Below, one piece after another: positions 35,571 to 59,692 of a stretch of 64,000 bases of DNA. The DNA is taken from the NCBI GenBank assembly GCA_023267375.1, contig JAHFNJ010000006.1, positions 684 through 64,683 of the forward strand. Reading direction: 5' to 3'. Position 1 is the first letter of the stretch; each line of letters begins with the position of its first letter. The notes beneath the pieces are model-generated. The model worked only from the letters and a program-made list of their open reading frames with translations, had not been told where the DNA came from and searched no databases. The DNA comes from Candidatus Nomurabacteria bacterium (GTDB taxonomy: Bacteria; Patescibacteriota; Minisyncoccia; Phycocordibacterales; UBA9973). Both the position numbers and the translations under genes were made by a program.

Positions 35571-35612
35571 AAACAAAAAAAAAGGTTCCCCTTATCAGGG
35601 GAACCTTTTTAC
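35571..35612. terminator. bidirectional intrinsic terminator
   Basis: aaaaaaaaaAGGTTCCCCttatcaGGGGAACCTttttac lies between the convergent sigma factor gene and the 35617-36495 gene. Confidence 0.65.
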
Positions 35613-35616: not shown

Positions 35617-36495
35617 TTAGCGAATCAATCGAAACAACCAACGAAAGATGAGAAATGCAACCAATATAATACATCCGTAAAAAATAGCTGCATGATGGAA
35701 AATAAATGCAAAAAGCGAATAGAAGAAGAGTGATACATAATCAAGTGGTCGGCGAAATTGCTCTGGAATACTTGTCTTGGTCTGTACTTCTCCTTTATCA
35801 GTAAGAGTCACTGAAGTACCCTTCTTAACCTCTTCTGGATTATCGAGTCGTGTTTTTACACGTATTTGATCATCAGTAAATGTCTCAGCATTATCAGCCC
35901 GAAAATTGTCTACGGACTGAAAAAACGGGGTACTTTTTGTTTTCTCTACAACATAATCATCTGCACGAGTAATTACCTTATCTGCAGAATCACCTAAAGA
36001 AGGCGCTTCATTTTTTGAATCAGAAGTCGCTGCTGTCTTTCCTGAAGGCTGCACGACAACTTTCTTCTGAATAAAACGCTTATCAACATCTGTCGTAGCG
36101 TTTACGAGAACGACTGGCTGGGTTTTACCATCAAGAGCCATCTTTGGACTAATAATTTTTGCTGAAATCTTATGATCCCCTGCTGTCACTTTCCAACTGA
36201 TTGAAATATCTGAAGCCGCCCCTTTTGCAAGCGAAAATGTCTTGGTGCCCAAAACAACACTTTCATCATAAAAATCAACCGTACCTGAAAATACACCAGG
36301 ACCAGGGTTAAAAAGAAATGTATAGATACGCACCGTGTCTCCTTCAACAAACGGATCTTTAGAATACCAGATTGGGTTTTGAACAAAACCGATATTTACC
36401 GGAGTAGCCTCTGTTGCGCCCACAGAGAATGGAGACATAAAAAGCGCTAGAAAAAAAGTAGTGATAAAAAAACAATGCACCCTCTTCATGGGCAT
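35617..36495 (-). CDS. hypothetical secreted protein with C-terminal TM anchor
   Basis: Signal peptide, a beta-rich middle and a C-terminal hydrophobic helix (IFYGCIILVAFLIFRWLF). Confidence 0.4.
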   Translation of the reverse strand: MPMKRVHCFFITTFFLALFMSPFSVGATEATPVNIGFVQNPIWYSKDPFVEGDTVRIYTFLFNPGPGVFSGTVDFYDESVVLGTKTFSLAKGAASDISISWKVTAGDHKISAKIISPKMALDGKTQPVVLVNATTDVDKRFIQKKVVVQPSGKTAATSDSKNEAPSLGDSADKVITRADDYVVEKTKSTPFFQSVDNFRADNAETFTDDQIRVKTRLDNPEEVKKGTSVTLTDKGEVQTKTSIPEQFRRPLDYVSLFFYSLFAFIFHHAAIFYGCIILVAFLIFRWLFRLIR

Positions 36496-36521: not shown

Positions 36522-37133
36522 TTACTCTGTCGTGGGACGTTCTCCTAAAAGAAAACGCTTGACGACACGCGAGATCGAAATGAGCAGCAGTACCCCGACA
36601 ACAATGAGTATTATATTTCTAATAGTGCCGATGCCTTCCCCAATAAACTCAACTCTATTTCTAAAATACCAACCAATCAAAACATAAAGCGGTACATAGA
36701 CGACAAGCGCTGCCAAGTCATACGTGATAAATTTTCGAAAAGGAACCTTCGTTTGCCCAGCCATAAAAGGCCCTAAAAAACGAAGCTGTACGAGAAACCG
36801 CGAGAAAAAAATAACTTTCTCAATATGTGATTCGAGAAATACGCGCCTGCTTTCAAGACGGCGTGAAAATACTTTTTTATAAAAAAAAGTAACAAGCTTA
36901 CTTCCCTTCTTTGCAAGGAAGTACATCGCGATATCACTCACAAGGAGCGCTGAAATCACAATTGGAATAACGGTAAAACCATCAATCTTCCCAGTACCAG
37001 CCAAGTACCCGAAAGCGAGAAGAATGATTTCTTCCGGCACAGGAACAACGACATTCGCAAGAAGAGAGATGCCCCAGATGCCTACATACGAAAGATGCCC
37101 CAGCTGGCTGATGATTTCCCCTGTTTGAGTCAT
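36522..37133 (-). CDS. DedA/TVP38 family membrane protein
   Basis: About 200 aa and polytopic, with the characteristic DedA core (..LLAFGYLAG.. and the re-entrant segment). Confidence 0.6.
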   Translation of the reverse strand: MTQTGEIISQLGHLSYVGIWGISLLANVVVPVPEEIILLAFGYLAGTGKIDGFTVIPIVISALLVSDIAMYFLAKKGSKLVTFFYKKVFSRRLESRRVFLESHIEKVIFFSRFLVQLRFLGPFMAGQTKVPFRKFITYDLAALVVYVPLYVLIGWYFRNRVEFIGEGIGTIRNIILIVVGVLLLISISRVVKRFLLGERPTTE

Positions 37134-37156: not shown

Positions 37157-38692
37157 TTATGCGAATCCTGGGAAAAAGTCTTTTTTGATATGATTTTTAG
37201 GAATTCCTTGATTACGAAGCATGTCATTGAATGCATTCACCATACCGTGCGGTCCTGAAAGATAGAAAACGCGATCGGCAAGATCTGGCACCTTCTCGAC
37301 GACGAGCGGAGCAGTAATTTTACCGACGTATTTTGGATTTTGCTCATCAGAAAGAGCGTGGACAACCGTCAGTGGAATTTTCTTTTTTGCATCTTCAAGA
37401 AAATCAAGGTACGCAATATCACTCTCAGTCTTGTTTGCATAAAACAGCACAATATCCCGCTGGTCGTTCTTGTTGATGAGATGTTGAATCATAGAAAGGT
37501 ATGGGGTAATACCAATACCGCCCGCCATAAAAACAAGTTTTTGTTTTGGATCCTTCGGCAAAATAAAATCACCTGCAAGACTTCCCGCGGAGAGAATATC
37601 TCCTTCTTTTAAAGCAAGTAGTGCGTTTTTAAAACTACTACCATTTGGATATGTTTTTATACCTAAATACACAACTGTATCGTCTGGAGTGGAAGCGATT
37701 GTGAAGTATCGCCGATTGCCGCGGGAATCTGGTTTTTCGTGTGGAAGCGTCCATTCAAGATATTGACCAGGAGTAAAACGGAGTTGCTCAGACGGCTCAA
37801 ATATAAAATCATAGACATCTTTTGTAACCTGTATTTTTTGTTTTAGTTTCAATACTACTTTCTGCTTTGGAGAAACAAAGTACGAAAAAATATTTCCTCC
37901 AAGAAGCGCAAGTTCTGGCGTTAAGTAAAAAGAACCGAAATGCAGTGCTGGCATGAACAAGACACCGACAACTACTCCATAGAGAATCCGCAACAACCTT
38001 GAAGGAGGCATCGTGAGCGGTTCTGTAAACATGACAAACACAAAAAAGAAAAGAGGTGAATAGATGAAAAGACCACTCGCAGTTACGAGCATATTTGTGG
38101 GAGTCAGGTTATGAGAAAGAAGTGTCCCGATTGTTGCAACGATAATAAAACTAATTACTGCATCCCCGCGACGTAATTTTCGAACAAGGAGTACTCCACC
38201 AATAAAGACAAATGGGACCATGAAAAGCGTACCGACCCACCAGGTAGCAACTTGAGAGATGGTGAGTGCTGTAAGTGCCACCGCAAATGCCGCTGGGTTA
38301 AAAATATGTTTCTTGCGAATCGCCAAAATATATTTTGAGGCCATAGACCAGACCGCCGCCCAAAACACAAACATAAGGAATGTCGTATCGGTAAATGATG
38401 CAGGCGGTGAAATAATGAGCGCCAGAATAAGCGCAGTGATGTACGCTGATTCAACATTTTTTGGAGCTTTCCAAACACGGCTAAAAATTTCATTAACAGC
38501 AAGACAGAGCACGAGAATCAGTACTGTAGAGAATAGAAGATGCAGTGGTGAAACTGCAAGAACCCCGAGCACGCCGAGGACTAGAGCAACCAAAATAAGT
38601 CCTACAAGGTAGTACAAAACCAAGCGATACATCGTAATCGCATTCAAGAAATTATCTATTGGTCGTATAAGTAGCTGGAATATTTTTCTCAT
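37157..38692 (-). CDS. membrane oxidoreductase: polytopic N-terminal domain fused to FNR-like FAD-binding and NAD(P)-binding domains
   Basis: The N-terminal ~300 aa form 7-9 hydrophobic helices. The C-terminus has an FNR-type RYFTIAS (RxYS/T FAD motif) and the GGIGITP NAD(P) motif. The start is uncertain because the track ORF overlaps the ApbE gene. Confidence 0.6.
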   Translation of the reverse strand: MRKIFQLLIRPIDNFLNAITMYRLVLYYLVGLILVALVLGVLGVLAVSPLHLLFSTVLILVLCLAVNEIFSRVWKAPKNVESAYITALILALIISPPASFTDTTFLMFVFWAAVWSMASKYILAIRKKHIFNPAAFAVALTALTISQVATWWVGTLFMVPFVFIGGVLLVRKLRRGDAVISFIIVATIGTLLSHNLTPTNMLVTASGLFIYSPLFFFVFVMFTEPLTMPPSRLLRILYGVVVGVLFMPALHFGSFYLTPELALLGGNIFSYFVSPKQKVVLKLKQKIQVTKDVYDFIFEPSEQLRFTPGQYLEWTLPHEKPDSRGNRRYFTIASTPDDTVVYLGIKTYPNGSSFKNALLALKEGDILSAGSLAGDFILPKDPKQKLVFMAGGIGITPYLSMIQHLINKNDQRDIVLFYANKTESDIAYLDFLEDAKKKIPLTVVHALSDEQNPKYVGKITAPLVVEKVPDLADRVFYLSGPHGMVNAFNDMLRNQGIPKNHIKKDFFPGFA

Positions 38693-38696
38693 ATCA

Positions 38697-39473
38697 TTAT
38701 TGTACAACAAATGTACTAAAGTTAGTTGTGGCTGTCGCGATACCCTCACGATCTATCATATACCCCTCAAATCCTGGAAGTTGTTCAATAAAGTAAATCC
38801 CCTCCCGCCCCATCGCAAAAGCAGCTGTCGCAAACCGATCAGCCTCGTATACATTTGGACCAATTACCGTTAAGCTGACAACATCAGCAATTTCTCTATT
38901 GCGCTCGTGAGGATTGTATATGTGACTACCCAAAAGATACGAGCCTGAAGTAGCGACACCAATGGCACTGCCAGCAATTACTTTTACCAGTGTATCTTTT
39001 TCTTTATCGAACAAGCGATCCTTTACACCGCTCCATGGATTGCGGATTCCAACACGCCATGGCAACCCCTCGCTATTGTTTCCTGAAAGTTCAATATCTC
39101 CGCCAGCATCAATACAGAAATTCGTAAACCCCTTATCCGTAAGAAGTACTGCTGCGTTATGGATTGCCCATCCTTTTACGATCCCGGATGGATCATAAGT
39201 GCCATCAGCACGCACAATATCGAAGTATCCATCGGTCGCTTGTTTTGTTTCTTCTGCATAAGCGAATACTTCCTTCATTTCTTCGCTCCAGAGTTCTTCA
39301 GGAAGTTCCCCGTTATTGATTCGCGTTATCTCACTCGTATCTTTATAGACACTAAAGGTTTCATCAACACGCGTAAAATAGGCAAAGACATCATCAAAAT
39401 CTTTCTTCGTCGCCGATGTATCTGCGATCTCGATAGAAATCGGCATACCCATAATTGTCCGCTGTTCTTTCAT
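38697..39473 (-). CDS. apbE: FAD:protein FMN transferase (ApbE family)
   Basis: ApbE-family signatures: ..IGMPISIEIAD..DGYFDI..GIVKGWAIH.. Confidence 0.7.
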   Translation of the reverse strand: MKEQRTIMGMPISIEIADTSATKKDFDDVFAYFTRVDETFSVYKDTSEITRINNGELPEELWSEEMKEVFAYAEETKQATDGYFDIVRADGTYDPSGIVKGWAIHNAAVLLTDKGFTNFCIDAGGDIELSGNNSEGLPWRVGIRNPWSGVKDRLFDKEKDTLVKVIAGSAIGVATSGSYLLGSHIYNPHERNREIADVVSLTVIGPNVYEADRFATAAFAMGREGIYFIEQLPGFEGYMIDREGIATATTNFSTFVVQ

Positions 39474-39484
39474 AAGTATTATTA

Positions 39485-39982
39485 CTAGACCTGTGCCTGC
39501 GAAAGGGCATCTGCAAGCGATTTACGAAAACCCATACTTGTTTCAGTGGCACCTGAGACAGTATCTACTTTGTAGCTTTGCGCCGCAATCGCTTCTTGTT
39601 TGAGTATCGGCATTGCATTCATACTTTTGTAGAGCGAGGTGCTTCGATCCTTCGGATAATCCAAGAATTGAATATCAGTAATTTTTCCACCTTTAATAAC
39701 AGCCTTTACAGAAACATTTCCGTAGTACACATCAACGCTTGGACCAACATATGAGCCATCAACAAGCCCTGTTGCTGTTTTCTTGGGCGGGGGTGGTGTT
39801 GTTTTAGGAATAGTAACAGGTGGTACTGGTGTATCTTGTACTGGAGTTTTTACCGGGACAACTTCTGGAACAGACGTCGTTGTGTCAGCAACAGATACAA
39901 CAGGGTCTGTCTTTTGATTTGCGTACAGTACATAAAAACCAAAACCAGCAATAACAATAATCGAGAGAAGAATTTTTTTCAT
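39485..39982 (-). CDS. membrane-anchored FMN-binding domain protein (ApbE flavinylation target)
   Basis: N-terminal TM (MKKILLSIIVIAGFGFYVLYA), a Pro/Thr-rich linker and an FMN_bind domain ending in D-T-V-S-G-A-T (the Dxx[ST]GA[TS] motif flavinylated by ApbE). Confidence 0.6.
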   Translation of the reverse strand: MKKILLSIIVIAGFGFYVLYANQKTDPVVSVADTTTSVPEVVPVKTPVQDTPVPPVTIPKTTPPPPKKTATGLVDGSYVGPSVDVYYGNVSVKAVIKGGKITDIQFLDYPKDRSTSLYKSMNAMPILKQEAIAAQSYKVDTVSGATETSMGFRKSLADALSQAQV

Positions 39983-40082
39983 AATGTAAGTGCGTATTAT
40001 TTTAATGCTTACTCTTTTTATAAAAAGAGTAAGCATTTGTATATACGTTTTCAGAAGAATAGTGGTGCAAAAGTGGCCAATA

Positions 40083-40592
40083 CTACTGTGCATCTACTCC
40101 GAGAGTAGTAGGCATAACACGAATAAATTTTGCTTCAATTTGACCTTGATCGTTTGGGTTTCCAATGACGACAATCGGAGCATCAACCTGCAAATCAGAA
40201 GTGTCCCCCTCTCCGTCTCTACCAATTTCAATATCAGTATTATCAGCTATTAAAATGATCTTCTCTGTTCCATCGTTATCTTTCACGATAATTGTCGGGA
40301 GTGATACTTGAATGATTGATCCGACGGCGCCATGCGGGTTTGAGAAATGCCGAGAAACACTATCCAGTTTTCCGCGTGGAGGAGTGCCAAAATTTTCAAG
40401 ATAGTGTTCTCCCCACGCTCCTTCAAATGAGGCACGATGGAATCCAACAAAAACGCCGGCAGAAAAAATTGCCGATGCAACGATAACGGCAGCAAGTATA
40501 TATATAATCTTTAAAAACAATTTTGATTCAAATCCTTTCTGTATATTTTTTTTTATTTCTTCTGTTTCCATCCGGTTAGTGAAAAATGGCAT
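40083..40592 (-). CDS. hypothetical membrane-anchored protein
   Basis: 169 aa with one TM (LKIIYILAAVIVASAIFSAGVFVGF). No family recognised. Confidence 0.4.
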   Translation of the reverse strand: MPFFTNRMETEEIKKNIQKGFESKLFLKIIYILAAVIVASAIFSAGVFVGFHRASFEGAWGEHYLENFGTPPRGKLDSVSRHFSNPHGAVGSIIQVSLPTIIVKDNDGTEKIILIADNTDIEIGRDGEGDTSDLQVDAPIVVIGNPNDQGQIEAKFIRVMPTTLGVDAQ

Positions 40593-40740
40593 TATTGGTT
40601 TTTGCCATATTTTATTATGTGATAATAATTGAACATACTTTTATACTGATACTTATTTTTTACCAATGCCTTCGGCTATGCCATTTTCTACTACCGGATC
40701 CATATGGTAATTCATGATTATATCTTTTAATGGGCTTTCA

Positions 40741-41145
40741 TTATGCAAAACGCGGATGTGAAATAGTCGTCTGTACAGCACGCTTTAATGACCACAATAC
40801 GACAACCAGTAACGCAAAACAGAGAGCAACACTCATCACTGGCAAAGATTCGGCCATCGAGAGAAGGAGTTCTTTCCATGAATGTGCGAGCACACCGTTA
40901 CCAGAGAATGTAAGCGCTACATACTTTCCAAAGCCAGAGAGCGCAAAATCATTCGCCAGCCCCTTTATAGCGGGGACAAGTGCGGTAACAGAAAAAATAC
41001 TAACCAACAGAAAACCGAAGCGCTTACGGTAGGTAACCCGTCTTTGTTTCAGTACGATAGTATCCCAAATCCGCAACGAGAGGTCCGGTTCGGGTATATA
41101 GGCATCTTTTTTAAAAATTGTAGTGAGGCGCTGATCCATGTTCAT
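40741..41145 (-). CDS. putative anti-sigma factor (membrane protein co-transcribed with ECF sigma)
   Basis: Starts 8 nt after the ECF sigma stop. Has a short cytoplasmic N-terminus and 2-3 TM helices. Confidence 0.4.
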   Translation of the reverse strand: MNMDQRLTTIFKKDAYIPEPDLSLRIWDTIVLKQRRVTYRKRFGFLLVSIFSVTALVPAIKGLANDFALSGFGKYVALTFSGNGVLAHSWKELLLSMAESLPVMSVALCFALLVVVLWSLKRAVQTTISHPRFA

Positions 41146-41153
41146 ATGTACGA

Positions 41154-41768
41154 TTATACCTCCTCCTCCGGTGCATGAGGGATGGTAACCATTTTTTGTA
41201 ATTGTAATAATGCTCGACGATGATAACTTTTCACCGTATTCATTGGTTTATTGAGCACCTTCCCTATTTCTTCAAAGGTCATTTCTTCCTGGTAGTGCAA
41301 TGTAAAAATTGTACGGTAATCAAGAGAAAGCGTATCGAGAAGCGTATTTAAAAAGAGGGTATCTTCTAATTTTTCTAGCACCTTATCAGGCAAGACCGCG
41401 TCATCTACGAGCGTGTCCGAAAAGGGAGTTTCTTCCTCCATTCTTTCTAAATCAGAAAAAACAACCGACTTTTTCTTGCGCAAAAAATCAGTAACGGTGT
41501 TCCGCGCAATCGTAAAAATCCACGTCTTGAAACTCGCCTTACGCGAATCAAAGTTTTTTATATTTTTCCATGCCTTGATGAACGTGTCCTGAAGGATATC
41601 GGGAATCACTGAAATGCCGACAAACCGTCGAGAAAAATTACCGAGTGAATCGGTATATCGTTCAATCAGTATTTTGAATGCCTCTTCGTATCCTTCATTA
41701 TAGAGTGCAATGAGTTCTTCGTCGTTTTTTTCTTGCATGATACATTCACGAACTTCTGTCGTGCTCAT
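41154..41768 (-). CDS. ECF (group 4) RNA polymerase sigma factor
   Basis: Region 2 is ..YEEAFKILIERYTDSLGNFSRRFV...DILQDTFIKAWKNIKNFD. The region 4 HTH is MTFEEIGKVLNKPMNTVKSYHRRALLQL. Confidence 0.8.
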   Translation of the reverse strand: MSTTEVRECIMQEKNDEELIALYNEGYEEAFKILIERYTDSLGNFSRRFVGISVIPDILQDTFIKAWKNIKNFDSRKASFKTWIFTIARNTVTDFLRKKKSVVFSDLERMEEETPFSDTLVDDAVLPDKVLEKLEDTLFLNTLLDTLSLDYRTIFTLHYQEEMTFEEIGKVLNKPMNTVKSYHRRALLQLQKMVTIPHAPEEEV

Positions 41769-41841
41769 ATCACTATACTCTCGAGACTGCCTTTTTCAAA
41801 ACCACCCCGTATTTGTGTACGGGGTGTTTTTTCGTCTCAAC

Positions 41842-42336
41842 TTATTCAACAATAAGCATTCCTTTCATACCATTGGCACGATGGCTACCAACACTACAGT
41901 AGTATTCAAAACTACCCGCTTTGTCTGCTACAAAAGTAACTGTCGCAATAGCTCCGTCTTTAATGCGGTCAGTTTTTGCATTAAATTCATCAATGATAAA
42001 ATCATGGAATCCGCCATCATTCTTGAAATTGATCGTTACTGTATCGCCCTTCTTCACCTTCATCACCGTTGGCACAAAGTAGAAATTGCCGCCATTCACA
42101 TCAAAGGTAACAGCACTACCAGCTGCTGCACTCTCTGCCGTCGTTGCCTGAGCTTTTTGTGCATCAGTCATATCTGGCGGAGTCACCACCTTCATCGGCA
42201 TAGCATCTGCAGGTTTTTCTTGCGCAGACTGTTCTGTCGCCTCCATAGGACCTTCTGATTTTTCCTTGGCTTTAAGTAAAAAAATTCCACCAATCACAAC
42301 AATGCCGATCACAACCCAAATAATTTCTTTTTTCAT
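41842..42336 (-). CDS. membrane-anchored cupredoxin (type 1 blue copper protein-like)
   Basis: N-terminal TM MKKEIIWVVIGIVVIGGIFLL. The C-terminal domain carries His (GGFHDF) and the Cys-x4-His-x4-Met ligand set (YYCSVGSHRANGMKG). Confidence 0.65.
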   Translation of the reverse strand: MKKEIIWVVIGIVVIGGIFLLKAKEKSEGPMEATEQSAQEKPADAMPMKVVTPPDMTDAQKAQATTAESAAAGSAVTFDVNGGNFYFVPTVMKVKKGDTVTINFKNDGGFHDFIIDEFNAKTDRIKDGAIATVTFVADKAGSFEYYCSVGSHRANGMKGMLIVE

Positions 42337-42377
42337 ACAATAAAAAAAATAACTACTAATAATGTAGCACCAGTATA

Positions 42378-44057
42378 CTATTGTTGTCGCTCCAATGCAC
42401 ACTTGTTGTCCGCATCAAGACCAACCATAGTAAACAATGTCTGACAGATAGTATCCATGCTCTGGTTTTTGGCAAAAACGTGATTCTCGCCCGGAATAAT
42501 AATAAATGTACCAGGAACTTTATTTGCTTTCATTTTCTCCTGCAAAAATGTCGCTTGGATTGGCGGGACAGTCGTATCTTTCTCTGCCTGAATGATAAAA
42601 ATTTTCTTGGCAGTTACGCGCTTCAACCGACTGATGATTGAGGCCTTTTCATACAACGACGCATTATGTCCTCCCGGTACGCCACCAAAGAGCGTATTGA
42701 AAATAGAATTCTGCAAATAGGTATTGAGTGCCGCCCAATCAGTAACACCGTTTATCGAAAGCGCGCCTGCGAATAATTCTGGGTAGCCCGCAAGCGAGCG
42801 GAGCGCCAAATACCCGCCGTAACTGTTACCAACAAGATAGATGTCGCCGACACTTCTTCCTTTCTTGAGAGCACTGATGGCATTGGCGACATCAGTCATA
42901 TCATTTTTCCCAACTCCTCGTCTGATGGCCTCCGTATGTGCGCGGCTTCCACCATAACTTCCCGCATAATCAATTTTCAATACTTCAGCGCCAGCGCCTA
43001 CTGCTTCTTCAAGCATCCAGTCGTACACGCCATAACTGCTATACGGATGCCGAATAAATGAAGTCTGTCGGTATGGTCCACCGTGGAGCCACACAATAAG
43101 TGGTGATGGCGTTTCCCCTGCTTGTGGTGGCGCCTTCAGAGAAGACCTCATGAACACAGTTTCAACGCCACCAAGTTTTTGATGTATATAAAAAGTAGCA
43201 TCGTTGTAGAGCGGTGTCTTCATGGGAACATCGAACGGCGAAACAATTCCTGTCGCAAGATCATTGATAACAACCGGAGCAGTACCGAGCGGCGTCATCT
43301 GTGTAAAAAGCACAGCACTACCGGAGGGCCGAAGAACGGTATCGTACGCAACATTTTCTGCGAGTATTTTTTTTGTCTTTAGCTTTATGTTATATGAATA
43401 CAAAATCCAGTTGTATGGATTTTCTGCGGTGTTCGCTACATACAGCAATGTCTCTGGATCCGTATACAAAAAATCACCGATGGTAATACCGGAAGTAATT
43501 GCAGTCCCCCGCAATGCCTTGCTCGAGGGACTCGAAAGCGACGCAACATAGAGCGACAAGAAACCACTGCGATCGTCAACATACGCCAAGGTTGATTCAT
43601 CGGGCGCAAAACGAAAAATATGTGGCTGTTCTTGGAGTGAATCCCAGAACGTAAGCGTATTGTTAACTGCATACCGCCCCTTAGTCTTGCCATCAATCAA
43701 GCCGACCGTACGAAGCGACGAAGATTTATCGAAAGAAATGTACGCGCCATAGCGACCTGTTGGAGACAGTCGCTGGTATGATGTTTTTTTGGGAAACGTC
43801 ACCTGTGTATTTTGTGCGGCAACCGACGGTCCAGTTGCCGGAGCAGGTGGCACCACAGCAATATCTTCACATGCATGTGTTGTCACACTGCATGAAAAAT
43901 AGTGTTTCGTTTCTAAATCTTTCCATTCAATATAGGCAGTGTCTCCTTCAACACGCACAATTGATCCGTACCAAAAAGGACGCGCAGAAACTGCTTTGGG
44001 TAAACACAAAGCAAGAATGAAAAGAACAGTGAGGTATAGAATTTTATACTTTCGCAT
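42378..44057 (-). CDS. secreted S9-family serine peptidase (prolyl oligopeptidase / acylaminoacyl peptidase-like)
   Basis: Signal peptide, an N-terminal beta-propeller-like region, and a C-terminal alpha/beta hydrolase with the nucleophile elbow GNSYGG. Confidence 0.7.
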   Translation of the reverse strand: MRKYKILYLTVLFILALCLPKAVSARPFWYGSIVRVEGDTAYIEWKDLETKHYFSCSVTTHACEDIAVVPPAPATGPSVAAQNTQVTFPKKTSYQRLSPTGRYGAYISFDKSSSLRTVGLIDGKTKGRYAVNNTLTFWDSLQEQPHIFRFAPDESTLAYVDDRSGFLSLYVASLSSPSSKALRGTAITSGITIGDFLYTDPETLLYVANTAENPYNWILYSYNIKLKTKKILAENVAYDTVLRPSGSAVLFTQMTPLGTAPVVINDLATGIVSPFDVPMKTPLYNDATFYIHQKLGGVETVFMRSSLKAPPQAGETPSPLIVWLHGGPYRQTSFIRHPYSSYGVYDWMLEEAVGAGAEVLKIDYAGSYGGSRAHTEAIRRGVGKNDMTDVANAISALKKGRSVGDIYLVGNSYGGYLALRSLAGYPELFAGALSINGVTDWAALNTYLQNSIFNTLFGGVPGGHNASLYEKASIISRLKRVTAKKIFIIQAEKDTTVPPIQATFLQEKMKANKVPGTFIIIPGENHVFAKNQSMDTICQTLFTMVGLDADNKCALERQQ

Positions 44058-53972: not shown

Positions 53973-54584
53973 TTAAATCACTTGTTCTAATAATTCAGGA
54001 AATTCTACGGTACCCATATGTTCTAAAATGAAGTGTCCTCGCCCTGGTAAAGTTACTAACTTTCCACCCAGAGCATCGTTATACATTTTAATACTTTCTG
54101 GACCACCTGGACCTTCATTATCTGATGTAAACATCACAATCTCCTGTACACGCGAAGGAATGGTTTCATCAATTGAGTAGTTATAAAATCTCGTCCTCAA
54201 ATCAATTGGTTCTTTATTGCCAGCAACTTTCCAAGGTGCAACTAAAATTAATTTCCTAATTTTTTTCTTAGTATCACCAAGCCATCTTACTAAAAAAGCA
54301 CATCCACAACTATGTCCTATTAGAATGGTATTTTCATCAACTTTATATTTTTCAAATTCTTTTTTAAACTTTTCGTAATCTGGCACCCAAGGTTCAGGCA
54401 TTAGCGGTGTCTGCGTTGGTACTCCCATGTCTAACAATTTTTCACGAATCCAAGGAATCCAGTGTTTATAATATGTTCTTTCGCTTATATCAATGAGTGA
54501 TTCCTTTGTACCTGGACATCCATGAACGATAATACAGTTAATTTTTTTATCCATATTTGGATTGTAACATGATTCGAATCTCAA
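53973..54584 (-). CDS. alpha/beta-fold serine hydrolase (YdeN/RBBP9-like esterase)
   Basis: 203 aa with nucleophile elbow GHSCG, plus downstream Asp/His consistent with the Ser_hydrolase family. Confidence 0.5.
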   Translation of the reverse strand: MRFESCYNPNMDKKINCIIVHGCPGTKESLIDISERTYYKHWIPWIREKLLDMGVPTQTPLMPEPWVPDYEKFKKEFEKYKVDENTILIGHSCGCAFLVRWLGDTKKKIRKLILVAPWKVAGNKEPIDLRTRFYNYSIDETIPSRVQEIVMFTSDNEGPGGPESIKMYNDALGGKLVTLPGRGHFILEHMGTVEFPELLEQVI

Positions 54585-54740
54585 ACTCCGACCTGTCTAG
54601 GTCAGGTCGTTCACTAAATTGGAGAATGGTACGCTTTTGTGGTTGATTCTAAGTGATTGTAATTATTTGACAATAATTAATTTTAATGTTAAATTATTAA
54701 AAATTTAACTGTATAACCAAAAATCTAAATAACCAATATT

Positions 54741-55466
54741 ATGCCAGCAAAGATTACTTTACTCGGAGCATTGCATGCAACCCCAGAAAAACTCATAGAT
54801 AGTAATCAGTATGGGATCTCAGATATGTTATTAGGTAACGAATCTGATACATTATTCGCGGAAAGATGGTTCAAAACATTTGATGACAATTTAACTTTGC
54901 TAATCTTAGAAAGTGCTTCATTCCATAAGAACATCATTACAATAGATAGTCCATTGTATGAAAGTGAGATCAAGCACATTAGCACATTGTTAGTTCAAAG
55001 TGATTTTGGTCCAGATATTCTGTGTGCGGATACACGTTTTAAAAATTTAAAGTCGGCAAAGAAAATCGTTAGTCTTAATTTTACGACTTTAGCGCACATG
55101 AATGGTGCATTTGGATTGGTAAGAATTCCTGAAACATTTGAGGATGCCCAGAAGTGTTACATCGACGGGAGATGGAAAAGGGATTATCGCCTGATGAGAG
55201 AAATCCCCAACAACATCAAAAGATCTGTTTTAGAGGAAGATGCTCTTAATACAGAAATGGAGAAGTACATGTTGGAACAAGCTGAGAAATATAAAAATGA
55301 TTATGACCAAATACTTATAATCACCGGTGCTTCTCATACTCTCGAAATGGCGACAACTTCTCAACTTCCCTATGAGGTGCTTGTTGAAACCAATAGCATG
55401 AATGAAATAGCTCAAAATTATGGAATGCTATTGGCAAGAAAAGCAAAAACAATTTTAAAGTGTTAA
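54741..55466 (+). CDS. hypothetical protein, possibly TraB/GumN-family
   Basis: ITLLGALHATPE near the N-terminus and LIITGASHTLEM near the C-terminus resemble the two TraB/GumN His motifs. Weak. Confidence 0.3.
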   Translation: MPAKITLLGALHATPEKLIDSNQYGISDMLLGNESDTLFAERWFKTFDDNLTLLILESASFHKNIITIDSPLYESEIKHISTLLVQSDFGPDILCADTRFKNLKSAKKIVSLNFTTLAHMNGAFGLVRIPETFEDAQKCYIDGRWKRDYRLMREIPNNIKRSVLEEDALNTEMEKYMLEQAEKYKNDYDQILIITGASHTLEMATTSQLPYEVLVETNSMNEIAQNYGMLLARKAKTILKC

Positions 55467-55487
55467 TTAAAGAAGGAGGAAAAAACA

Positions 55488-55523
55488 GCACGGAAGATAG
55501 AATTTCTATCTTCCGTGTTTTAT
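55488..55523 (+). terminator. intrinsic terminator
   Basis: GCACGGAAGATAGaatttCTATCTTCCGTGttttat lies directly after the 54741-55466 stop. Confidence 0.65.
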
Positions 55524-55563
55524 ATTAGGGTTTCGAAGAAAGGTTATAGTTAAGAAAAAAGTC

Positions 55564-55592
55564 TTGTTATTTGCTATTTTTTGTTGTAAATT
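55564..55592 (+). promoter_or_regulatory. candidate promoter for tRNA-Gln (TTGTTA-17-TAAATT)
   Basis: The -35-like and -10-like hexamers have 17-nt spacing, and the -10 lies about 18 nt upstream of the tRNA 5' end. Confidence 0.35.
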
Positions 55593-55609
55593 AAAGGCTG
55601 TTATCTGAT

Positions 55610-55683
55610 TGGGGAATCGTCTAATGGTAGGACAGCGGCCTTTGAAGCCGTTAATTGGGGTTCGAATCCCTGTTCCCCAGCCA
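55610..55683 (+). tRNA. tRNA-Gln (anticodon UUG), CCA encoded
   Basis: TGGGGAATCGTCTAATGGTAGGACAGCGGCCTTTGAAGCCGTTAATTGGGGTTCGAATCCCTGTTCCCCAGCCA. The acceptor stem is TGGGGAA/TTCCCCA, the anticodon loop is CTTTGAA (UUG) and the T-loop is GGTTCGAATCC. Confidence 0.8.
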
Positions 55684-55714
55684 ACTTGAGCTAGCTCAAA
55701 GATAGCTAGTTTCA

Positions 55715-55752
55715 AAACAAAAAACACCTTAATCAAAAAGGTGTTTTTTGTT
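55715..55752. terminator. intrinsic terminator after tRNA-Gln
   Basis: aaaaaACACCTTaatcaaaAAGGTGTtttttg. Confidence 0.6.
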
Positions 55753-55786
55753 TGAGTATTTATCGTAAATATAGTATAACTACACC

Positions 55787-56350
55787 ATGAACTTGGTTAA
55801 AGTGAATACTACTATTTTTGGCGAAGACTGCACAGTTGATCTAATGCAGTTTGATTCTTCTGATGGGAAAAAATGGAAAACTCTATTTGATCTATGGAAA
55901 GGTCTTAAAATGGGTATGCGTGATTACAAATCACGTGAGCCAAATTTTCCAGAAGGACTATCTGAAGTTGCTTTTTGTTTATGGTCTGGATCAACCAGAT
56001 TAATAAGTGCAAAAAAACTATCTAACACATCTTTTGATACATTTAATACTAAGACAAAAAGAGCTGAACAAATCAAAGCTTGTAGCGTTGAAAATGATCT
56101 TACTTCTTTTGGTCCAAAGTCTAGGTGGGATGATTTATATTTCTTGGACTTTTATGCTGATGGAAAAGTTGATGGAACTTTTAGTATTTATCTAATACCT
56201 AATAATTTTATTTACGATAATCAGGTTAATAAACTTCAGACACTCAAGCAACAACAAGAAGAAAAAAGGAGACCTAGGTTTTGTATCAAAAAAGATGTTA
56301 TTGAGAAATACAGTCTTAAGCCAGTCGCTACCAATGTAAAGGTTTGGTAA
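55787..56350 (+). CDS. hypothetical protein; candidate restriction endonuclease partner of the adjacent C5-MTase
   Basis: 187 aa, convergent and tail-to-tail with the MTase (stops 2 nt apart). It contains a possible PD-(D/E)XK-like stretch (WDDLYFLDFYADGKVDG) and has no RBS, so it may be leaderless. Confidence 0.3.
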   Translation: MNLVKVNTTIFGEDCTVDLMQFDSSDGKKWKTLFDLWKGLKMGMRDYKSREPNFPEGLSEVAFCLWSGSTRLISAKKLSNTSFDTFNTKTKRAEQIKACSVENDLTSFGPKSRWDDLYFLDFYADGKVDGTFSIYLIPNNFIYDNQVNKLQTLKQQQEEKRRPRFCIKKDVIEKYSLKPVATNVKVW

Positions 56351-56352
56351 TT

Positions 56353-57939
56353 TTACATCATCGCTTCCATCATTTTCTTTGCCACGGCTTCAATTACAGG
56401 AACACTCACTGAGTTACCAGCCTGTTTATACAGTGATGAATCTGCAATATTGGGCAGTACATAACTTTTAGGGAAACCTTGTATTCGAAAACACTCTAAT
56501 GGCGTAAGTTTTCTTATACCTTTTTTGTCTTTTATTATAGGTACATTGTGTCCACCCATTCCCATATTTGCAGTAAGTGTTGGACAAACCCCACTTTTAT
56601 TTTCACGGACATACTGTCTCCTCCATTGATATACTTTTCCTTCTTCTTTCACGTCTTTCTTTAGTTTCTCAAAAAGAGGTTTGCCGTTGTAGTAGTATTT
56701 TTCAGGAACATTTTTTTCTAATAAATCAGTAACTTTTTTTGTAAGTTTAACTGGTTCAGGAAAATTAAATTTATCCGAATAATCTTTATTTTTAAAACCC
56801 ACTATATAAATACGCTCACGATTTTGTGGAACATTACCATATTCCATAGTATTTAGTACTTTAGATTTTACATGGTAACCCAATTCTCTAAGAGTTTCTT
56901 CGATTACTTTAAAAGTATTGCCTCCGTCGTGGCTTTTCAGGTTTTTAACATTCTCAAGCATAAAACCCTCTGGATTTTTAGCTTTAATGATTTTTGCTAT
57001 ATCAAAAAATAGATTACCTCTATTTTTAGGATCGTCGAACCCTTTACGGTATCCTGCAATAGAAAACGCTTGGCAAGGGAATCCTCCTAATAAGAAATCA
57101 AATTCTGGCAAGTCATCAATCCCAATCTTTCTAATGTCCTCAACAATTAGTTTCGAGTTTCCAAAATTAAGATCGTAAGTAAGTTTACATGGAGCATCAA
57201 AATCATTTGCGAATACTGTTTTAAATCCAGCATTCTCAAATCCTGTTCTGATACCACCAACGCCTGCAAATAAATCTATGGTTTTAAAGCCATGCTTAGA
57301 CTTCTTTCTGGGTTTCGCTTCTTCTTCCAACTTAATATCTCGTATAACTTGCACAACGACACCTCTTATCTCTACATCTATTCTAAACAATGGTTTCATG
57401 TCTGGATTTCGCGGTTGCAATCTAATTTTCTTGTCTTCTTTATATAGTTTTTTAAGAGTTGCTTGATTATCATCAATAATTGCAACAACTGTTTGTCCGT
57501 TTTCTGCTACAGATTGTTTTTTAATAACAACAATGTCGCCATTAAAGATACCTTCATCTATCATACTGTCTCCAACAACACGCAGAGCATAGTGGTCTTT
57601 AGCAGTTTTGATAGCTGGATTTATTATAGATATGGTGTCTTGAGCATCTTCAATTGCTTCTATTGGTTGACCAGCGGCAATTTTACCAACAATAGGAATT
57701 TCAATGATTGATTTAATTTCTTTTTTTGGTGTCATACCACGATCGGTATCATCTGATTTTGAAAGGTAACCTTTCTCTCTTAGGGAAGCTATATGTTCGT
57801 GAACCGTTGAAACTGCCTTTAGATTTAAATTTTTACGAATCTCATCAATTGTAGGAGGAATGCCATTCTCAGCTGTATAAGTATTGATAAAATCGAATAT
57901 CTCTTTTTGTTTTTTTGTTAGTGTTTGCATATTACTCAT
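56353..57939 (-). CDS. LexA repressor (wHTH + S24 autopeptidase) fused to DNA (cytosine-5)-methyltransferase
   Basis: Residues 1-200 align motif-for-motif with E. coli LexA: LTKKQKEIFDFI, GIPPTIDEI, cleavage-site VGKIAAGQPIEA, catalytic Ser in RVVGDSMIDEGIFNGD and Lys in ATLKKL. Residues ~215-528 carry C5-MTase motifs I (DLFAGVGG), IV (GGFPCQAFS), VI (ENV) and X (QAGNSVSVPV). Confidence 0.8.
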   Translation of the reverse strand: MSNMQTLTKKQKEIFDFINTYTAENGIPPTIDEIRKNLNLKAVSTVHEHIASLREKGYLSKSDDTDRGMTPKKEIKSIIEIPIVGKIAAGQPIEAIEDAQDTISIINPAIKTAKDHYALRVVGDSMIDEGIFNGDIVVIKKQSVAENGQTVVAIIDDNQATLKKLYKEDKKIRLQPRNPDMKPLFRIDVEIRGVVVQVIRDIKLEEEAKPRKKSKHGFKTIDLFAGVGGIRTGFENAGFKTVFANDFDAPCKLTYDLNFGNSKLIVEDIRKIGIDDLPEFDFLLGGFPCQAFSIAGYRKGFDDPKNRGNLFFDIAKIIKAKNPEGFMLENVKNLKSHDGGNTFKVIEETLRELGYHVKSKVLNTMEYGNVPQNRERIYIVGFKNKDYSDKFNFPEPVKLTKKVTDLLEKNVPEKYYYNGKPLFEKLKKDVKEEGKVYQWRRQYVRENKSGVCPTLTANMGMGGHNVPIIKDKKGIRKLTPLECFRIQGFPKSYVLPNIADSSLYKQAGNSVSVPVIEAVAKKMMEAMM

Positions 57940-57947
57940 AATTTACA

Positions 57948-57975: not shown

Positions 57976-58010
57976 TAAAACCGAAAGTCTAAGCTTTAAT
58001 TAAAATACTG

Positions 58011-59690: not shown

Positions 59691-59692
59691 TT

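What the first reader, a model, noticed from the sequence alone, without database searches (positions are those of the whole stretch)
37157..42402. Extracytoplasmic flavin/copper redox module under an ECF sigma pair
Co-directional genes encode a membrane-anchored cupredoxin (His/Cys/His/Met ligands), an ECF sigma with its anti-sigma, a hypothetical membrane protein, an FMN-binding protein ending in the exact ApbE substrate motif D-T-V-S-G-A-T, ApbE itself, and a polytopic membrane protein fused to an FNR-like FAD/NAD(P) reductase. From established knowledge, ApbE flavinylates the Thr of Dxx[ST]GA[TS] in periplasmic or extracellular FMN-binding domains (NqrC, RnfG, PplA). By inference, this is a compact trans-membrane electron route, NAD(P)H to membrane flavin to extracellular flavo/cupro-protein. 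That is notable if the organism otherwise lacks a respiratory chain. It could serve extracellular electron transfer, oxidative-stress protection or metal reduction.
Basis: partly seen in the sequence, partly recalled or inferred. Interest (0 to 1): 0.55.

Follow-up and report, generated by a model that had tools for sequence, protein, structure and literature searches.

The report
Flavin electron exporter with copper partner
This is a real gene cluster for an already described but never tested "Nqr/Rnf-like" system that is predicted to pass electrons from NAD(P)H across the membrane to an outside flavoprotein; here, and in a few close relatives, it sits with a blue-copper protein and a stress sigma factor, which hints at who receives the electrons.

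Summary
The three-gene core is FMN_bind (39485-39982), ApbE (38697-39473) and a membrane/FNR fusion (37157-38692). It belongs to the "NQR/RNF-like" flavinylation system defined bioinformatically by Meheust et al. 2021 and modelled by Huang et al. 2024, so the core is not new. I confirmed that the membrane domain has the RnfD/NqrB fold. It lacks the loop that carries the covalent-FMN threonine. The FMN_bind-ApbE-fusion order holds in about 65 of 80 genomes from five phyla, and the flavinylation motif is conserved.

The accessory genes appear to be new; neither paper mentions them. Across the family, an ECF sigma or a cupredoxin nearby is rare. In the window's closest clade, however, the sigma/anti-sigma/hyp169 unit is adjacent to the core or interleaved with it in about 6 of 12 loci. 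The cupredoxin abuts the core in three different gene orders. Cupredoxin homologues elsewhere sit next to NOX-like NAD(P)H membrane reductases in 7 of 83 loci.

Best reading: NAD(P)H, then FAD, then the membrane domain, then external covalent FMN, then (likely) the cupredoxin, with stress-inducible expression.

One point is unexplained: the operon's ApbE has no export signal. Nothing here has been tested experimentally.

The parts
41842..42336 (-). Membrane-anchored type-1 (blue copper) cupredoxin, 164 aa. N-terminal TM helix, Ala/Pro/Met-rich linker, ligands H111/C147/H152/M157.
   Evidence: Pfam Cupredoxin_1 and Copper-bind. Ligands conserved in 30 homologues. A homologue lies next to the Nqr/Rnf-like core in L085 and in the P0006 locus. 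Homologues lie next to NOX-like reductases in 7 other loci.
41803..41826 (-). GC-rich hairpin (9-10 bp stem) followed by GUUUUG, between the cupredoxin stop and the sigma start. Terminator-like.
   Evidence: Scan lists the hairpin. RNA fold of the intergenic region: -25.1 kcal/mol, z=-5.3. The U-tail on the minus strand has only 4 U, so its strength as a terminator is uncertain.
41772..41799 (-). Best sigma-70-like promoter match in the region (TTGAAA-16-TATAGT). It ends 4 nt before the sigma ATG.
   Evidence: 10 of 12 matches. This is a consensus match only. The number of such sites in the region is not above the shuffled expectation.
41154..41768 (-). ECF-type sigma factor, 204 aa (regions 2 and 4 only).
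   Evidence: Sigma70_r2, Sigma70_r4_2 and TIGR02937 at 110 bits against a cut-off of 42.9.
40741..41145 (-). Putative anti-sigma factor, 134 aa, two TM helices, 8 nt after the sigma gene.
   Evidence: No family hit. Homologues follow the sigma gene in L085, L010, L066, L081 and L157. In L167 and L082 the homologue follows the core instead.
40083..40592 (-). hyp169: single-TM protein with a small beta-rich C-terminal domain. It is the third gene of the sigma/anti-sigma unit. A paralogous class matches DUF5666.
   Evidence: No Pfam hit for the window copy. Homologues follow the anti-sigma gene in L085, L010, L066, L081, L157, L167 and L082. Related 142-154 aa proteins hit DUF5666 and pair with FMN_bind or with the cupredoxin.
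40005..40036 (-). Perfect 32-nt palindrome (ATGCTTACTCTTTTTATAAAAAGAGTAAGCAT), 22 nt upstream of the FMN_bind start. Could be a hairpin or an operator; role unknown.
   Evidence: Unique in the window; none expected by chance. 15-bp stem, region z=-5.6.
39485..39982 (-). NqrC/RnfG-like FMN_bind subunit, 165 aa. N-terminal TM anchor, Pro/Thr linker, FMN_bind domain, flavinylation motif D140-TVSGA-T146.
   Evidence: Pfam FMN_bind E=1.6e-9. The motif and its distance from the C-terminus are conserved in 70 orthologues.
38697..39473 (-). ApbE-family FAD:protein FMN transferase, 258 aa, with no signal peptide, lipobox or TM segment.
   Evidence: Pfam ApbE 127 bits. The ORF cannot be extended upstream. 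The same signal-less N-terminus (MKxTRxIMGMPItvE) is seen in about 67 loci.
37868..38692 (-). RnfD/NqrB-like membrane domain of the fusion protein (aa 1 to about 275). It lacks the loop that carries the covalent-FMN threonine.
   Evidence: Profile against PDB: RnfD 8ahx_D, E=2.4e-4. hhalign against E. coli RsxD: 93%. The model matches only RnfD/NqrB chains, TM-score 0.56-0.69. A gap of about 75 residues covers DGISQAT187 of RsxD. PF03116 is recorded in homologues of 52-57% identity.
37157..37858 (-). FNR-like FAD/NAD(P)H-binding domain of the fusion protein (aa about 279-511), predicted cytoplasmic.
   Evidence: NAD_binding_1 E=9e-16 and FAD_binding_6. The best solved relatives are the FAD/NADH domain of NqrF, E=2.5e-17. 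Fold matches.
36522..37133 (-). DedA/VTT-family membrane protein, 23 nt downstream of the fusion. Probably co-transcribed; its membership of the system is uncertain.
   Evidence: Pfam VTT_dom and NCBIfam DedA/UptA. A DedA gene also follows the fusion in L083 and lies in the cluster in L081.
35617..36495 (-). 292-aa secreted or anchored Ig-like protein, the last gene before the terminator. Its link to the system is unknown.
   Evidence: Weak Big_3_5 hit. A homologue is present in L083.
35579..35610 (.). Strong bidirectional intrinsic-terminator-like hairpin (14-bp stem, T-runs on both sides). Likely end of the transcription unit.

Best explanation
The region encodes a two-subunit 'Nqr/Rnf-like' transmembrane electron exporter together with its dedicated flavin transferase.

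Proposed electron path:
1. The cytoplasmic FNR-like domain of the 511-aa fusion protein oxidises NAD(P)H on FAD.
2. Electrons cross the membrane through the RnfD/NqrB-like domain. This domain has lost its own covalent-FMN loop and probably uses a non-covalent flavin site.
3. They reach the FMN that ApbE attaches to Thr146 (motif DTVSGAT) of the membrane-anchored NqrC/RnfG-like FMN_bind subunit on the outer face.
4. In this lineage the likely next acceptor is the membrane-anchored type-1 cupredoxin encoded beside the cluster. The step from FMN to blue copper is downhill.

The cluster is probably expressed with, or under, the adjacent ECF sigma/anti-sigma/hyp169 envelope-stress unit. It therefore looks like an inducible supply of reducing power to the cell surface rather than a housekeeping respiratory chain.

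Shown here: gene content, family and fold membership, motif conservation, synteny.
Inferred: every electron-transfer step, the direction of flow, the cupredoxin as acceptor, sigma control, and the terminal acceptor, which is unknown (candidates are O2, nitrite via NirK, metals, or oxidised envelope components).
For: Family assignments.

The core matches the published definition of the NQR/RNF-like system (PMC8238504, PMC11334425).

Membrane domain is RnfD/NqrB-like: profile hit to RnfD, E=2.4e-4; hhalign to RsxD, 93%; the AlphaFold model (pLDDT 81.6, pTM 0.79) matches only RnfD/NqrB chains. The flavinylated loop is absent. The FNR domain is closest to NqrF.

The operon order FMN_bind-ApbE-fusion holds widely: of 80 loci from Patescibacteria, Chloroflexota, Alphaproteobacteria, Actinomycetota and Spirochaetota, 67 have ApbE and 69 have FMN_bind. 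The motif [DN]xx[ST]G[AS][ST] or a close variant lies about 19 aa from the C-terminus in all 70 orthologues.

Cupredoxin link:
- Three different arrangements next to the core: window; L085 (hyp169-cupredoxin-FMN_bind); P0006 locus (fusion-cupredoxin).
- L072 has two cupredoxin-like genes directly upstream of a fusion, with no FMN_bind or ApbE.
- Cupredoxin homologues lie next to NOX-like Ferric_reduct/FAD/NAD proteins in 7 of 83 loci and next to MsrQ-like proteins in 3.

Sigma link: in L167 the core lies between the sigma gene and its anti-sigma gene. L082, L169, L085 and the P0006 locus also have the sigma unit contiguous with the core.

No strong terminator lies between the sigma promoter-like site and 35579.
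Against: - No experiment exists for any member of this family, and the literature's own model is bioinformatic.
- The window protein itself gives no PF03116 hit, even at E<=10.
- ApbE lacks any export signal, here and in nearly all relatives. Yet FMN_bind is predicted to lie outside, and in other phyla it carries Sec or lipoprotein signals. How the two meet is unexplained.
- The cupredoxin is separated from the sigma gene by a terminator-like hairpin.
- Cupredoxin adjacency is rare family-wide (3 of 80 loci). In the assembly that holds the closest relative, the cupredoxin gene sits on another contig next to lepA.
- Four close relatives (L168, L171, L172 and possibly L083) have no sigma gene nearby.
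- No shared ECF-type promoter motif was found upstream of the sigma or FMN_bind genes.
- A stable palindrome sits between hyp169 and FMN_bind.
Confidence: 0.6

Rival explanations
1. The three-gene core works as described, but the cupredoxin and the ECF sigma unit are only neighbours. The flavinylated subunit would reduce some other acceptor directly (Fe(III), O2, quinones, host-derived compounds). The neighbouring genes would reflect the compact, rearranging genomes of Patescibacteria.
For: Family-wide, the cupredoxin is nearby in 3 of 80 loci and an ECF sigma in 5-6 of 80. A terminator-like hairpin follows the cupredoxin gene. The cupredoxin is unlinked in GCA_040384425.1. L171 and L172 are bare trios. 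Meheust et al. link some clusters to VIT1 iron transporters instead.
Against: The cupredoxin adjoins the core in three different gene orders at 54-57% protein identity. The core is inserted between the sigma and anti-sigma genes in L167. The cupredoxin's commonest redox neighbours elsewhere are other transmembrane NAD(P)H reductases. All this is hard to explain by chance.
Confidence: 0.25
2. The RnfD/NqrB-like domain still moves ions. The system would then be a minimal redox-driven Na+/H+ pump (or an ion-motive-force-consuming device) that supports membrane energisation in an organism without a respiratory chain. Electron export would be the means, not the goal.
For: RnfD/NqrB is the proposed ion path of RNF and NQR and is related to Amt/urea channels (PMC12174285). 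The fold is retained. In L171 and L172 the trio lies beside the F-type ATP synthase operon. No respiratory complex is present in the 64-kb window.
Against: The RnfA/E (NqrD/E) pair and the moving RnfG switch between two sites, which the pumping models use, are absent. The FMN loop of RnfD is deleted. Conservation of the Na+-site or gate residues was not tested. The link to an ECF sigma suggests a stress function.
Confidence: 0.1
3. Topology is the reverse of the published model. The FMN_bind domain and the signal-less ApbE are both cytoplasmic. FMN_bind would bridge the FNR domain and the cytoplasmic flavin site of the RnfD-like domain, and the outside partner (for example the cupredoxin) would dock directly on the membrane domain.
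For: ApbE lacks any signal or TM segment in about 67 loci. Cytosolic ApbEs that modify cytosolic targets are known (PMC12052999). L072 pairs the fusion with cupredoxins and has no FMN_bind or ApbE.
Against: FMN_bind has a positively charged N-terminus before its TM helix and a Pro/Thr-rich linker. Orthologues in Actinomycetota and Peribacteria have lipoboxes, and those in Spirochaetota have Sec-type signals. The published AlphaFold-multimer model places the subunit outside.
Confidence: 0.07
4. The cupredoxin is a copper-handling or copper-resistance protein (CopI-like), not an electron carrier. The cluster would be an envelope metal-stress response in which the flavin system reduces or oxidises copper.
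For: Partial NCBIfam hit to CopI, E=1.8e-9. The linker contains Met residues (AMPMKVVTPPDM). Context includes an ECF sigma and, in relatives, MacAB-like exporters.
Against: The CopI hit covers only 66 residues, at 37.7 bits against a cut-off of 280. The full type-1 ligand set is conserved, as in electron-transfer cupredoxins. No CopA, CusF or CueO-type genes are in the window.
Confidence: 0.08

Closest known systems
NQR/RNF-like (Nqr/Rnf-like) flavinylation-associated system of Meheust et al. 2021 (eLife, PMC8238504) and Huang et al. 2024 (mSystems, PMC11334425)
   Same: It has a fusion of an NqrB/RnfD-homologous membrane domain with a PF00175 NAD-binding domain. The cluster also holds an NqrC/RnfG-like FMN_bind protein and ApbE. 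The membrane domain lacks the flavinylated Thr. The family is found mainly in the candidate phyla radiation and Actinobacteria.
   Different: The window's protein falls below Pfam PF03116 detection. The cluster is joined to an ECF sigma/anti-sigma/hyp169 unit and a type-1 cupredoxin; neither paper mentions sigma factors, copper or cupredoxins. I also find the family to be far larger than the 127 published clusters: 516 or more confirmed loci in GTDB species representatives, and 6945 or more proteins.
Na+-NQR and RNF complexes (NqrB/RnfD, NqrC/RnfG, NqrF)
   Same: The three protein modules are homologous. A covalent FMN sits on an external NqrC/RnfG-type domain and is installed by ApbE. The entry point is an NqrF-like FAD/NADH domain.
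   Different: There is no NqrA/D/E or RnfA/B/C/E, no Fe-S carriers and no quinone or ferredoxin site. The NqrB/RnfD FMN loop is deleted. Electron flow is predicted to be one-way outward rather than semicircular. Ion pumping is unproven.
Flavin-based extracellular electron transfer of Listeria (Ndh2, EetA/B, PplA, FmnB)
   Same: Cytoplasmic NADH is linked to an ApbE-flavinylated, membrane-anchored extracellular FMN protein in a monoderm cell.
   Different: Listeria uses a quinone pool (DMK) and unrelated membrane proteins, and FmnB is an exported lipoprotein. Here there is no quinone step, the route is a single RnfD-like/FNR polypeptide, and ApbE has no signal.
Bacterial NOX / MsrQ-type (Ferric_reduct) transmembrane reductases
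   Same: They have the same logic: a cytoplasmic FNR-like NAD(P)H domain fused to a membrane electron conduit. In Patescibacteria metagenome loci these proteins sit next to homologues of the same cupredoxin.
   Different: Their conduit is a di-haem b domain, not an RnfD-like flavin domain, and they involve neither ApbE nor FMN_bind.
sigmaW-type ECF envelope-stress units with a MacAB/YknXYZ-like exporter
   Same: It is an ECF sigma followed by a membrane anti-sigma. In relatives (L081, L082, L167) the unit also has an MFP plus ABC exporter.
   Different: The anti-sigma has no recognisable anti-sigma domain. A conserved third gene (hyp169) is present. A redox module is embedded in the unit.

Membership tests
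NQR/RNF-like flavinylation system (Meheust 2021 / Huang 2024) | [quoted passage not shown] | tested here: met
   The window protein gives no PF03116 hit by hmmscan, even at E<=10. Homology is shown by other tests: a family profile against RnfD 8ahx_D (E=2.4e-4); hhalign against E. coli RsxD (93%); a fold search that returns only RnfD/NqrB chains; and PF03116 recorded on most homologues of 52-57% identity.
NQR/RNF-like flavinylation system (Meheust 2021 / Huang 2024) | C-terminal cytosolic NAD-binding domain (PF00175) on the same polypeptide | tested here: met
   NAD_binding_1 E=9.2e-16 at residues 407-507 of the 530-aa ORF, plus FAD_binding_6. The closest solved relatives are NqrF.
NQR/RNF-like flavinylation system (Meheust 2021 / Huang 2024) | Clustered with an FMN_bind (NqrC/RnfG-like) protein and/or ApbE | tested here: met
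   FMN_bind and ApbE lie immediately upstream with gaps of 11 and 4 nt. The same order is seen in about 65 of 80 loci.
NQR/RNF-like flavinylation system (Meheust 2021 / Huang 2024) | [quoted passage not shown] | tested here: inconclusive
   FMN_bind has an N-terminal hydrophobic anchor (MKKILLSIIVIAGFGFYVLYA), judged by reading the sequence. No SignalP-type tool was available. ApbE clearly has no such signal.
NQR/RNF-like flavinylation system (Meheust 2021 / Huang 2024) | Membrane domain lacks the flavinylated Thr of NqrB/RnfD (Huang 2024) | tested here: met
   MAFFT alignment with E. coli RsxD shows a gap of about 75 residues that covers the loop with DGISQAT187. HMM and hhalign matches skip RnfD residues of about 100-220.
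NQR or RNF complex proper | Presence of the other core subunits (NqrD/E or RnfA/E, NqrA or RnfC, NqrF ferredoxin domain or RnfB) | tested here: not met
   None of these families occurs in the cluster or among the annotated genes of the 64-kb window. The rest of the genome is not available.
ApbE flavin transferase | ApbE fold or family match | tested here: met
   PF02424 at 127 bits against a cut-off of 25.6.
ApbE flavin transferase | N-terminal lipoprotein or secretion signal, typical of ApbEs that act on exported targets | tested here: not met
   The protein starts MKEQRTIMGMPISIEI, directly at the catalytic fold. An in-frame stop lies upstream. The same holds in about 67 loci. Cytosolic ApbEs are known for cytosolic targets.
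ApbE substrate (FMN_bind, NqrC/RnfG type) | Flavinylation motif Dxx[ST]GA[ST] in an FMN_bind domain, conserved in orthologues | tested here: met
   DTVSGAT at residues 140-146. The strict motif occurs in 43 of 70 orthologues. The others carry variants such as NxxSGAT or [KR][IV][SA]G[SA]S at the same distance from the C-terminus. Covalent flavin itself cannot be tested with these tools.
Type-1 (blue copper) cupredoxin | Cupredoxin fold family plus the His/Cys/His/Met ligand set | tested here: met
   PF13473 and PF00127 are above their cut-offs. H111 and C147 are invariant. H152 and M157 are present in 90% or more of 30 homologues, with Gln replacing Met in three.
ECF sigma / anti-sigma pair | Sigma with regions 2 and 4 only, followed by a co-transcribed membrane anti-sigma with a recognisable anti-sigma domain | tested here: inconclusive
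   The sigma criterion is met. The downstream 134-aa protein has two TM helices but no anti-sigma family hit and no zinc motif. Its conserved partnership with the sigma gene is the only support.
   There is no Ferric_reduct or SIP match. NAD_binding_6 matches only 46 residues. The N-terminal domain is RnfD-like.

The most novel reading that the evidence does not exclude
In Patescibacteria, which lack complex III and mostly lack quinones, the widespread membrane-anchored type-1 cupredoxin ('pcy') may be reduced directly at the cell surface. The reductants would be single-polypeptide transmembrane NAD(P)H dehydrogenases: the flavin-based Nqr/Rnf-like complex in this window, or haem-based NOX/MsrQ-like proteins in other lineages. 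Together they would form a minimal electron-transport chain without quinone or cytochrome bc. It could feed NirK, O2 or envelope repair enzymes, and in this clade it would be switched on by an ECF envelope-stress sigma factor.
Probability: 0.3. Interest if true: 0.7.

Novelty: new variant of a known kind. Interest (0 to 1): 0.45.

Why it matters
The core system is already in the literature, but only as a prediction, and its acceptor and physiological role are unknown.

The comparative evidence here nominates a specific acceptor, a blue-copper protein, and a specific regulatory context, an ECF envelope-stress unit.

A 2025 survey of Patescibacteria (PMC12931201) states that the protein which delivers electrons to their single-domain cupredoxin is unidentified, because complex III is missing. 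The gene adjacency found here suggests that transmembrane NAD(P)H reductases (Nqr/Rnf-like, NOX-like) fill that gap. Purified components could test this: NAD(P)H-dependent bleaching of the blue copper band.

It would also help explain how ultra-small fermentative symbionts re-oxidise NAD(P)H or protect their envelope.

The signal-less ApbE paired with an exported substrate raises a separate mechanistic question about where flavinylation occurs.

Tried and rejected
1. Pfam on the isolated membrane domain, hyp169 and the anti-sigma at E<=10 gave nothing useful.

2. A fold search with the full-length fusion model returned only FNR-domain matches. I had to model the membrane domain alone.

3. I first concluded from the 80 GTDB loci that the ECF sigma and the cupredoxin were incidental. 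I revised this after looking at the closest relatives one by one.

4. I considered the conserved Q-[SG]-A-[ST]-W-W motif of the membrane domain (QVAT150WW) as a cryptic ApbE site that a cytoplasmic ApbE could use. I rejected it: it aligns with VQMTSW of RsxD, directly after the shared FNPA helix, not with the flavinylated DGISQAT loop.

5. I considered DILSAGS in the FNR domain as an ApbE motif. I rejected it because it is not conserved.

6. I looked by eye for a shared ECF-type -35/-10 motif upstream of the sigma and FMN_bind genes in 8-10 loci and found none that was convincing. The only candidate was one sigmaW-like TGAAAT-N16-CGTATG upstream of FMN_bind in L169.

7. The Meheust supplementary table for NQR/RNF-like clusters is truncated in the held copy, so their signal-peptide calls for ApbE could not be read.

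8. I searched the window for further copies of the palindrome and found none.

9. The organism could not be named. The identical protein cluster carries no name. Assignment to Patescibacteria rests on the names of the nearest homologues.

Full report
**Observation**

The minus strand between 44057 and 35617 carries an uninterrupted run of co-directional genes. Listed in transcription order:

| Coordinates | Gene | Notes |
|---|---|---|
| 42378-44057 | S9-family peptidase | |
| 41842-42336 | cupredoxin | |
| 41154-41768 | ECF sigma factor | |
| 40741-41145 | 134-aa two-TM protein | putative anti-sigma |
| 40083-40592 | hyp169 | 169 aa, single TM |
| 39485-39982 | FMN_bind protein | |
| 38697-39473 | ApbE | |
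| 37157-38692 | membrane/FNR fusion | 511 aa |
| 36522-37133 | DedA protein | |
| 35617-36495 | Ig-like protein | 292 aa |

The flavinylation motif DTVSGAT is real but lies 19 residues before the C-terminus. The cupredoxin ligands H111, C147, H152 and M157 are conserved in 30 homologues. Orthologue N-termini place the true starts at 42336, 39982 and 38692.

**What the core is**

The fusion protein has thousands of full-length homologues: 6945 at E<=0.001 among the 8000 candidates scored. Most of those at 52-57% identity carry a precomputed PF03116 (NqrB/RnfD) hit plus PF00175, and NCBI calls several of them 'RnfABCDGE type electron transport complex subunit D'.

The window protein itself gives no PF03116 hit. 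I therefore tested homology in three other ways:
- A profile of 18 membrane domains finds Azotobacter RnfD (8ahx_D) as the only PDB match, E=2.4e-4.
- hhalign against E. coli RsxD gives 93% probability.
- An AlphaFold model of the membrane domain (pLDDT 81.6, pTM 0.79) matches only RnfD and NqrB chains in the PDB. The top 15 hits have TM-scores of 0.53-0.69, and the next hit has E>2.

The C-terminal domain is closest to the FAD/NADH domain of NqrF, E=2.5e-17.

This architecture, clustered with FMN_bind and ApbE, is exactly the 'NQR/RNF-like system' of Meheust et al. 2021. [quoted passage not shown] Huang et al. 2024 later made an AlphaFold-multimer model of the Ktedonobacter complex. They noted that the membrane domain lacks the flavinylation site of NqrB/RnfD.

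I reproduced that last point for this window. Alignment with RsxD shows shared anchors (FNPA; GG..L..K..R; T[ED]P.T). It also shows a gap of about 75 residues exactly where RsxD has the loop with DGISQAT187.

**Conservation of the core**

I fetched 80 loci from GTDB species representatives, out of 516 confirmed relatives. HMMs built from the window proteins find ApbE in 67 and FMN_bind in 69. The order FMN_bind, ApbE, fusion on one strand is almost always kept. This holds across Patescibacteria, Chloroflexota (Dictyobacter, Ktedonospora), Alphaproteobacteria (Mesorhizobium, Kaistia), Actinomycetota (Agreia, Herbiconiux) and Spirochaetota.

The acceptor motif is conserved. The strict form D..[ST]G[AS][ST] occurs in 43 of 70 orthologues. 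The rest carry close variants at the same distance from the C-terminus.

**Accessory genes**

Across the wide sample the accessory genes look incidental. An ECF sigma lies within a few kb in 5-6 of 80 loci and a cupredoxin in 3 of 80.

The closest relatives (fusion 54-66% identical) show a different pattern:

| Locus | Gene order |
|---|---|
| Window | cupredoxin / sigma - anti-sigma - hyp169 - FMN_bind - ApbE - fusion - DedA |
| L085 | hydrolase - sigma - anti-sigma - hyp169 - cupredoxin - FMN_bind - ApbE - fusion |
| P0006 locus | sigma - 136 aa - 154 aa - FMN_bind - ApbE - fusion - cupredoxin |
| L167 | sigma - FMN_bind - ApbE - fusion - anti-sigma - hyp169 - MFP - ABC |
| L082 | ...ApbE - fusion - anti-sigma - hyp169 - MFP - ABC |
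| L169 | sigma - 239 aa - FMN_bind - ApbE - fusion |
| L081 | sigma - anti-sigma - hyp169 - MacAB-like exporter - DedA - x - DUF5666 - FMN_bind - ApbE - fusion |
| L168, L171, L172 | core without a sigma gene |

The anti-sigma and hyp169 assignments in L167 and L082 have HMM E-values of about 1e-30.

The core is embedded between a sigma gene and its anti-sigma gene in L167. The cupredoxin touches the core in three different positions. Both facts are difficult to explain without selection for co-expression in this clade. Neither defining paper mentions sigma factors, copper or cupredoxins.

**The cupredoxin's other neighbours**

I fetched 80 metagenome loci that encode homologues of the cupredoxin and added three from protein look-ups. 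I then clustered the neighbouring genes. The most frequent non-housekeeping neighbours were:
- NOX-like membrane proteins with Ferric_reduct, FAD_binding_8 and NAD_binding_1, in 7 loci. Pfam confirmed five of them.
- DUF5666-like single-TM proteins, in 8-9 loci.
- MsrQ-like proteins with Ferric_reduct only, in 3 loci. A distinct but overlapping set of 3 loci has MsrB (SelR) nearby.

One divergent locus (L072) has two cupredoxin-like genes immediately upstream of an RnfD/FNR fusion, with no FMN_bind or ApbE.

So this cupredoxin family repeatedly sits beside proteins that carry electrons from cytoplasmic NAD(P)H across the membrane. A 2025 survey notes that Patescibacteria encode such a 'plastocyanin' as a presumed donor to NirK. 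It also notes that the protein which reduces it is unknown, because complex III is absent (PMC12931201).

**Mechanism**

The following steps are inferred. NAD(P)H reduces FAD in the FNR-like domain. Electrons cross the membrane via the RnfD-like domain. In RNF and NQR this domain holds a riboflavin near the cytoplasmic face and FMN near the outer face. Here the covalent FMN is missing. Huang et al. suggest that the FMN tethered to the external subunit occupies that pocket. From FMN on Thr146 the electron can pass to the type-1 copper centre. By general knowledge of flavin and blue-copper potentials this step is strongly downhill. The final acceptor is unknown.

**Transcription signals**

- The best promoter-like site of the region lies just before the sigma ATG.
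- A GC-rich hairpin with a short U-tail separates the cupredoxin from the sigma gene.
- No strong terminator occurs until the bidirectional one at 35579-35610.
- A unique perfect 32-nt palindrome sits 22 nt upstream of the FMN_bind start. Its role is unknown.
- I found no shared ECF-type promoter motif.

**Unexplained: ApbE has no export signal**

ApbE starts directly at its catalytic fold and cannot be extended upstream. The same is true in essentially all 67 loci. Its substrate, however, has an N-in TM anchor here. In Actinomycetota and Peribacteria it carries lipoboxes, and in Spirochaetota Sec-type signals.

Classical ApbEs that serve exported targets are lipoproteins, and the known cytosolic ApbEs serve cytosolic targets. 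There are three possibilities. Flavinylation may precede export. ApbE may reach the outside by an unknown route. Or the accepted topology may be wrong. I could not run a multimer prediction to examine this.

**Context**

The annotated genes of the 64-kb window include cell-wall, translation, surface-protein and restriction-modification genes, but no respiratory complex. The nearest homologues are from Patescibacteria. The source organism itself is unnamed.

**Verdict**

The core is a new member of a known but experimentally untested kind. The coupling to a cupredoxin and an ECF stress unit is a new variant. It gives a concrete, testable proposal for the system's acceptor and for the unknown reductant of the patescibacterial cupredoxin.

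Noticed in passing
window 38697-39473; loci L001-L080 (ApbE genes): The ApbE of this operon family has no signal peptide, lipobox or TM segment in nearly all of about 67 loci. Its FMN_bind substrate is membrane-anchored here and carries Sec or lipoprotein signals in other phyla. Where flavinylation takes place is unexplained.
   Followed up: partly
L086, L097, L113, L122, L136, L153, L165 (cupredoxin at about 6001 in the long loci): Homologues of the window's cupredoxin lie directly next to 436-443 aa NOX-like proteins (Ferric_reduct + FAD_binding_8 + NAD_binding_1). In L087, L095 and L115 they lie next to MsrQ-like proteins with Ferric_reduct only, and MsrB lies nearby in L087, L120 and L139.
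   Followed up: partly
L072 4618-6958: Two cupredoxin-like genes sit immediately upstream of an RnfD-like/FNR fusion, with no FMN_bind or ApbE on the 7.6-kb contig. One has a full Cys/His/Met site; the other lacks the Cys. This may be a flavinylation-independent variant of the system.
   Followed up: no
window 40083-40592; L107, L123, L127, L137, L144, L147, L157, L081, L083, L168: Single-TM proteins with a DUF5666-like beta domain fall into two classes. One follows the sigma/anti-sigma genes (the window's hyp169). The other, with a Gly-rich linker, pairs with the cupredoxin or sits directly upstream of FMN_bind. Function unknown.
   Followed up: partly
window 40005-40036: A perfect 32-nt AT-rich palindrome lies 22 nt upstream of the FMN_bind start codon. 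It is unique in the window and forms a 15-bp hairpin (z=-5.6). It could be an operator, an attenuator or a processing site.
   Followed up: partly
window 56353-57939 (-) and 55787-56350 (+): A single 528-aa ORF combines a LexA DNA-binding domain, a Peptidase_S24 self-cleavage domain and a C-5 cytosine DNA methylase. It lies next to a Bsp6I-type restriction endonuclease. This looks like a restriction-modification system whose methylase is fused to a LexA-like repressor.
   Followed up: no
window about 54000-62000: This is a low-GC stretch (0.33-0.38) holding the R-M genes, a large serine recombinase (58011-59357) and an N6/N4 DNA methylase (60677-61972). It is probably an integrated mobile island.
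   Followed up: no
window 11816-32502: Four consecutive very large surface-type proteins (3683, 965, 803 and 1403 aa). The 965- and 803-aa proteins, the two that were scanned, carry NHL, Ig-like and CarboxypepD_reg repeats. Together they take up about a third of the window.
   Followed up: no
L171 and L172: In two close relatives the bare FMN_bind-ApbE-fusion trio lies convergent with the F-type ATP synthase operon.
   Followed up: no
L081, L084, L167, L168 (all GCA_040384425.1): One NCBI assembly holds at least three different copies of the Nqr/Rnf-like operon (fusions 57-66% identical to the window's) on separate contigs. It is either a mixed-population bin or a genome with several paralogous systems.
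   Followed up: no
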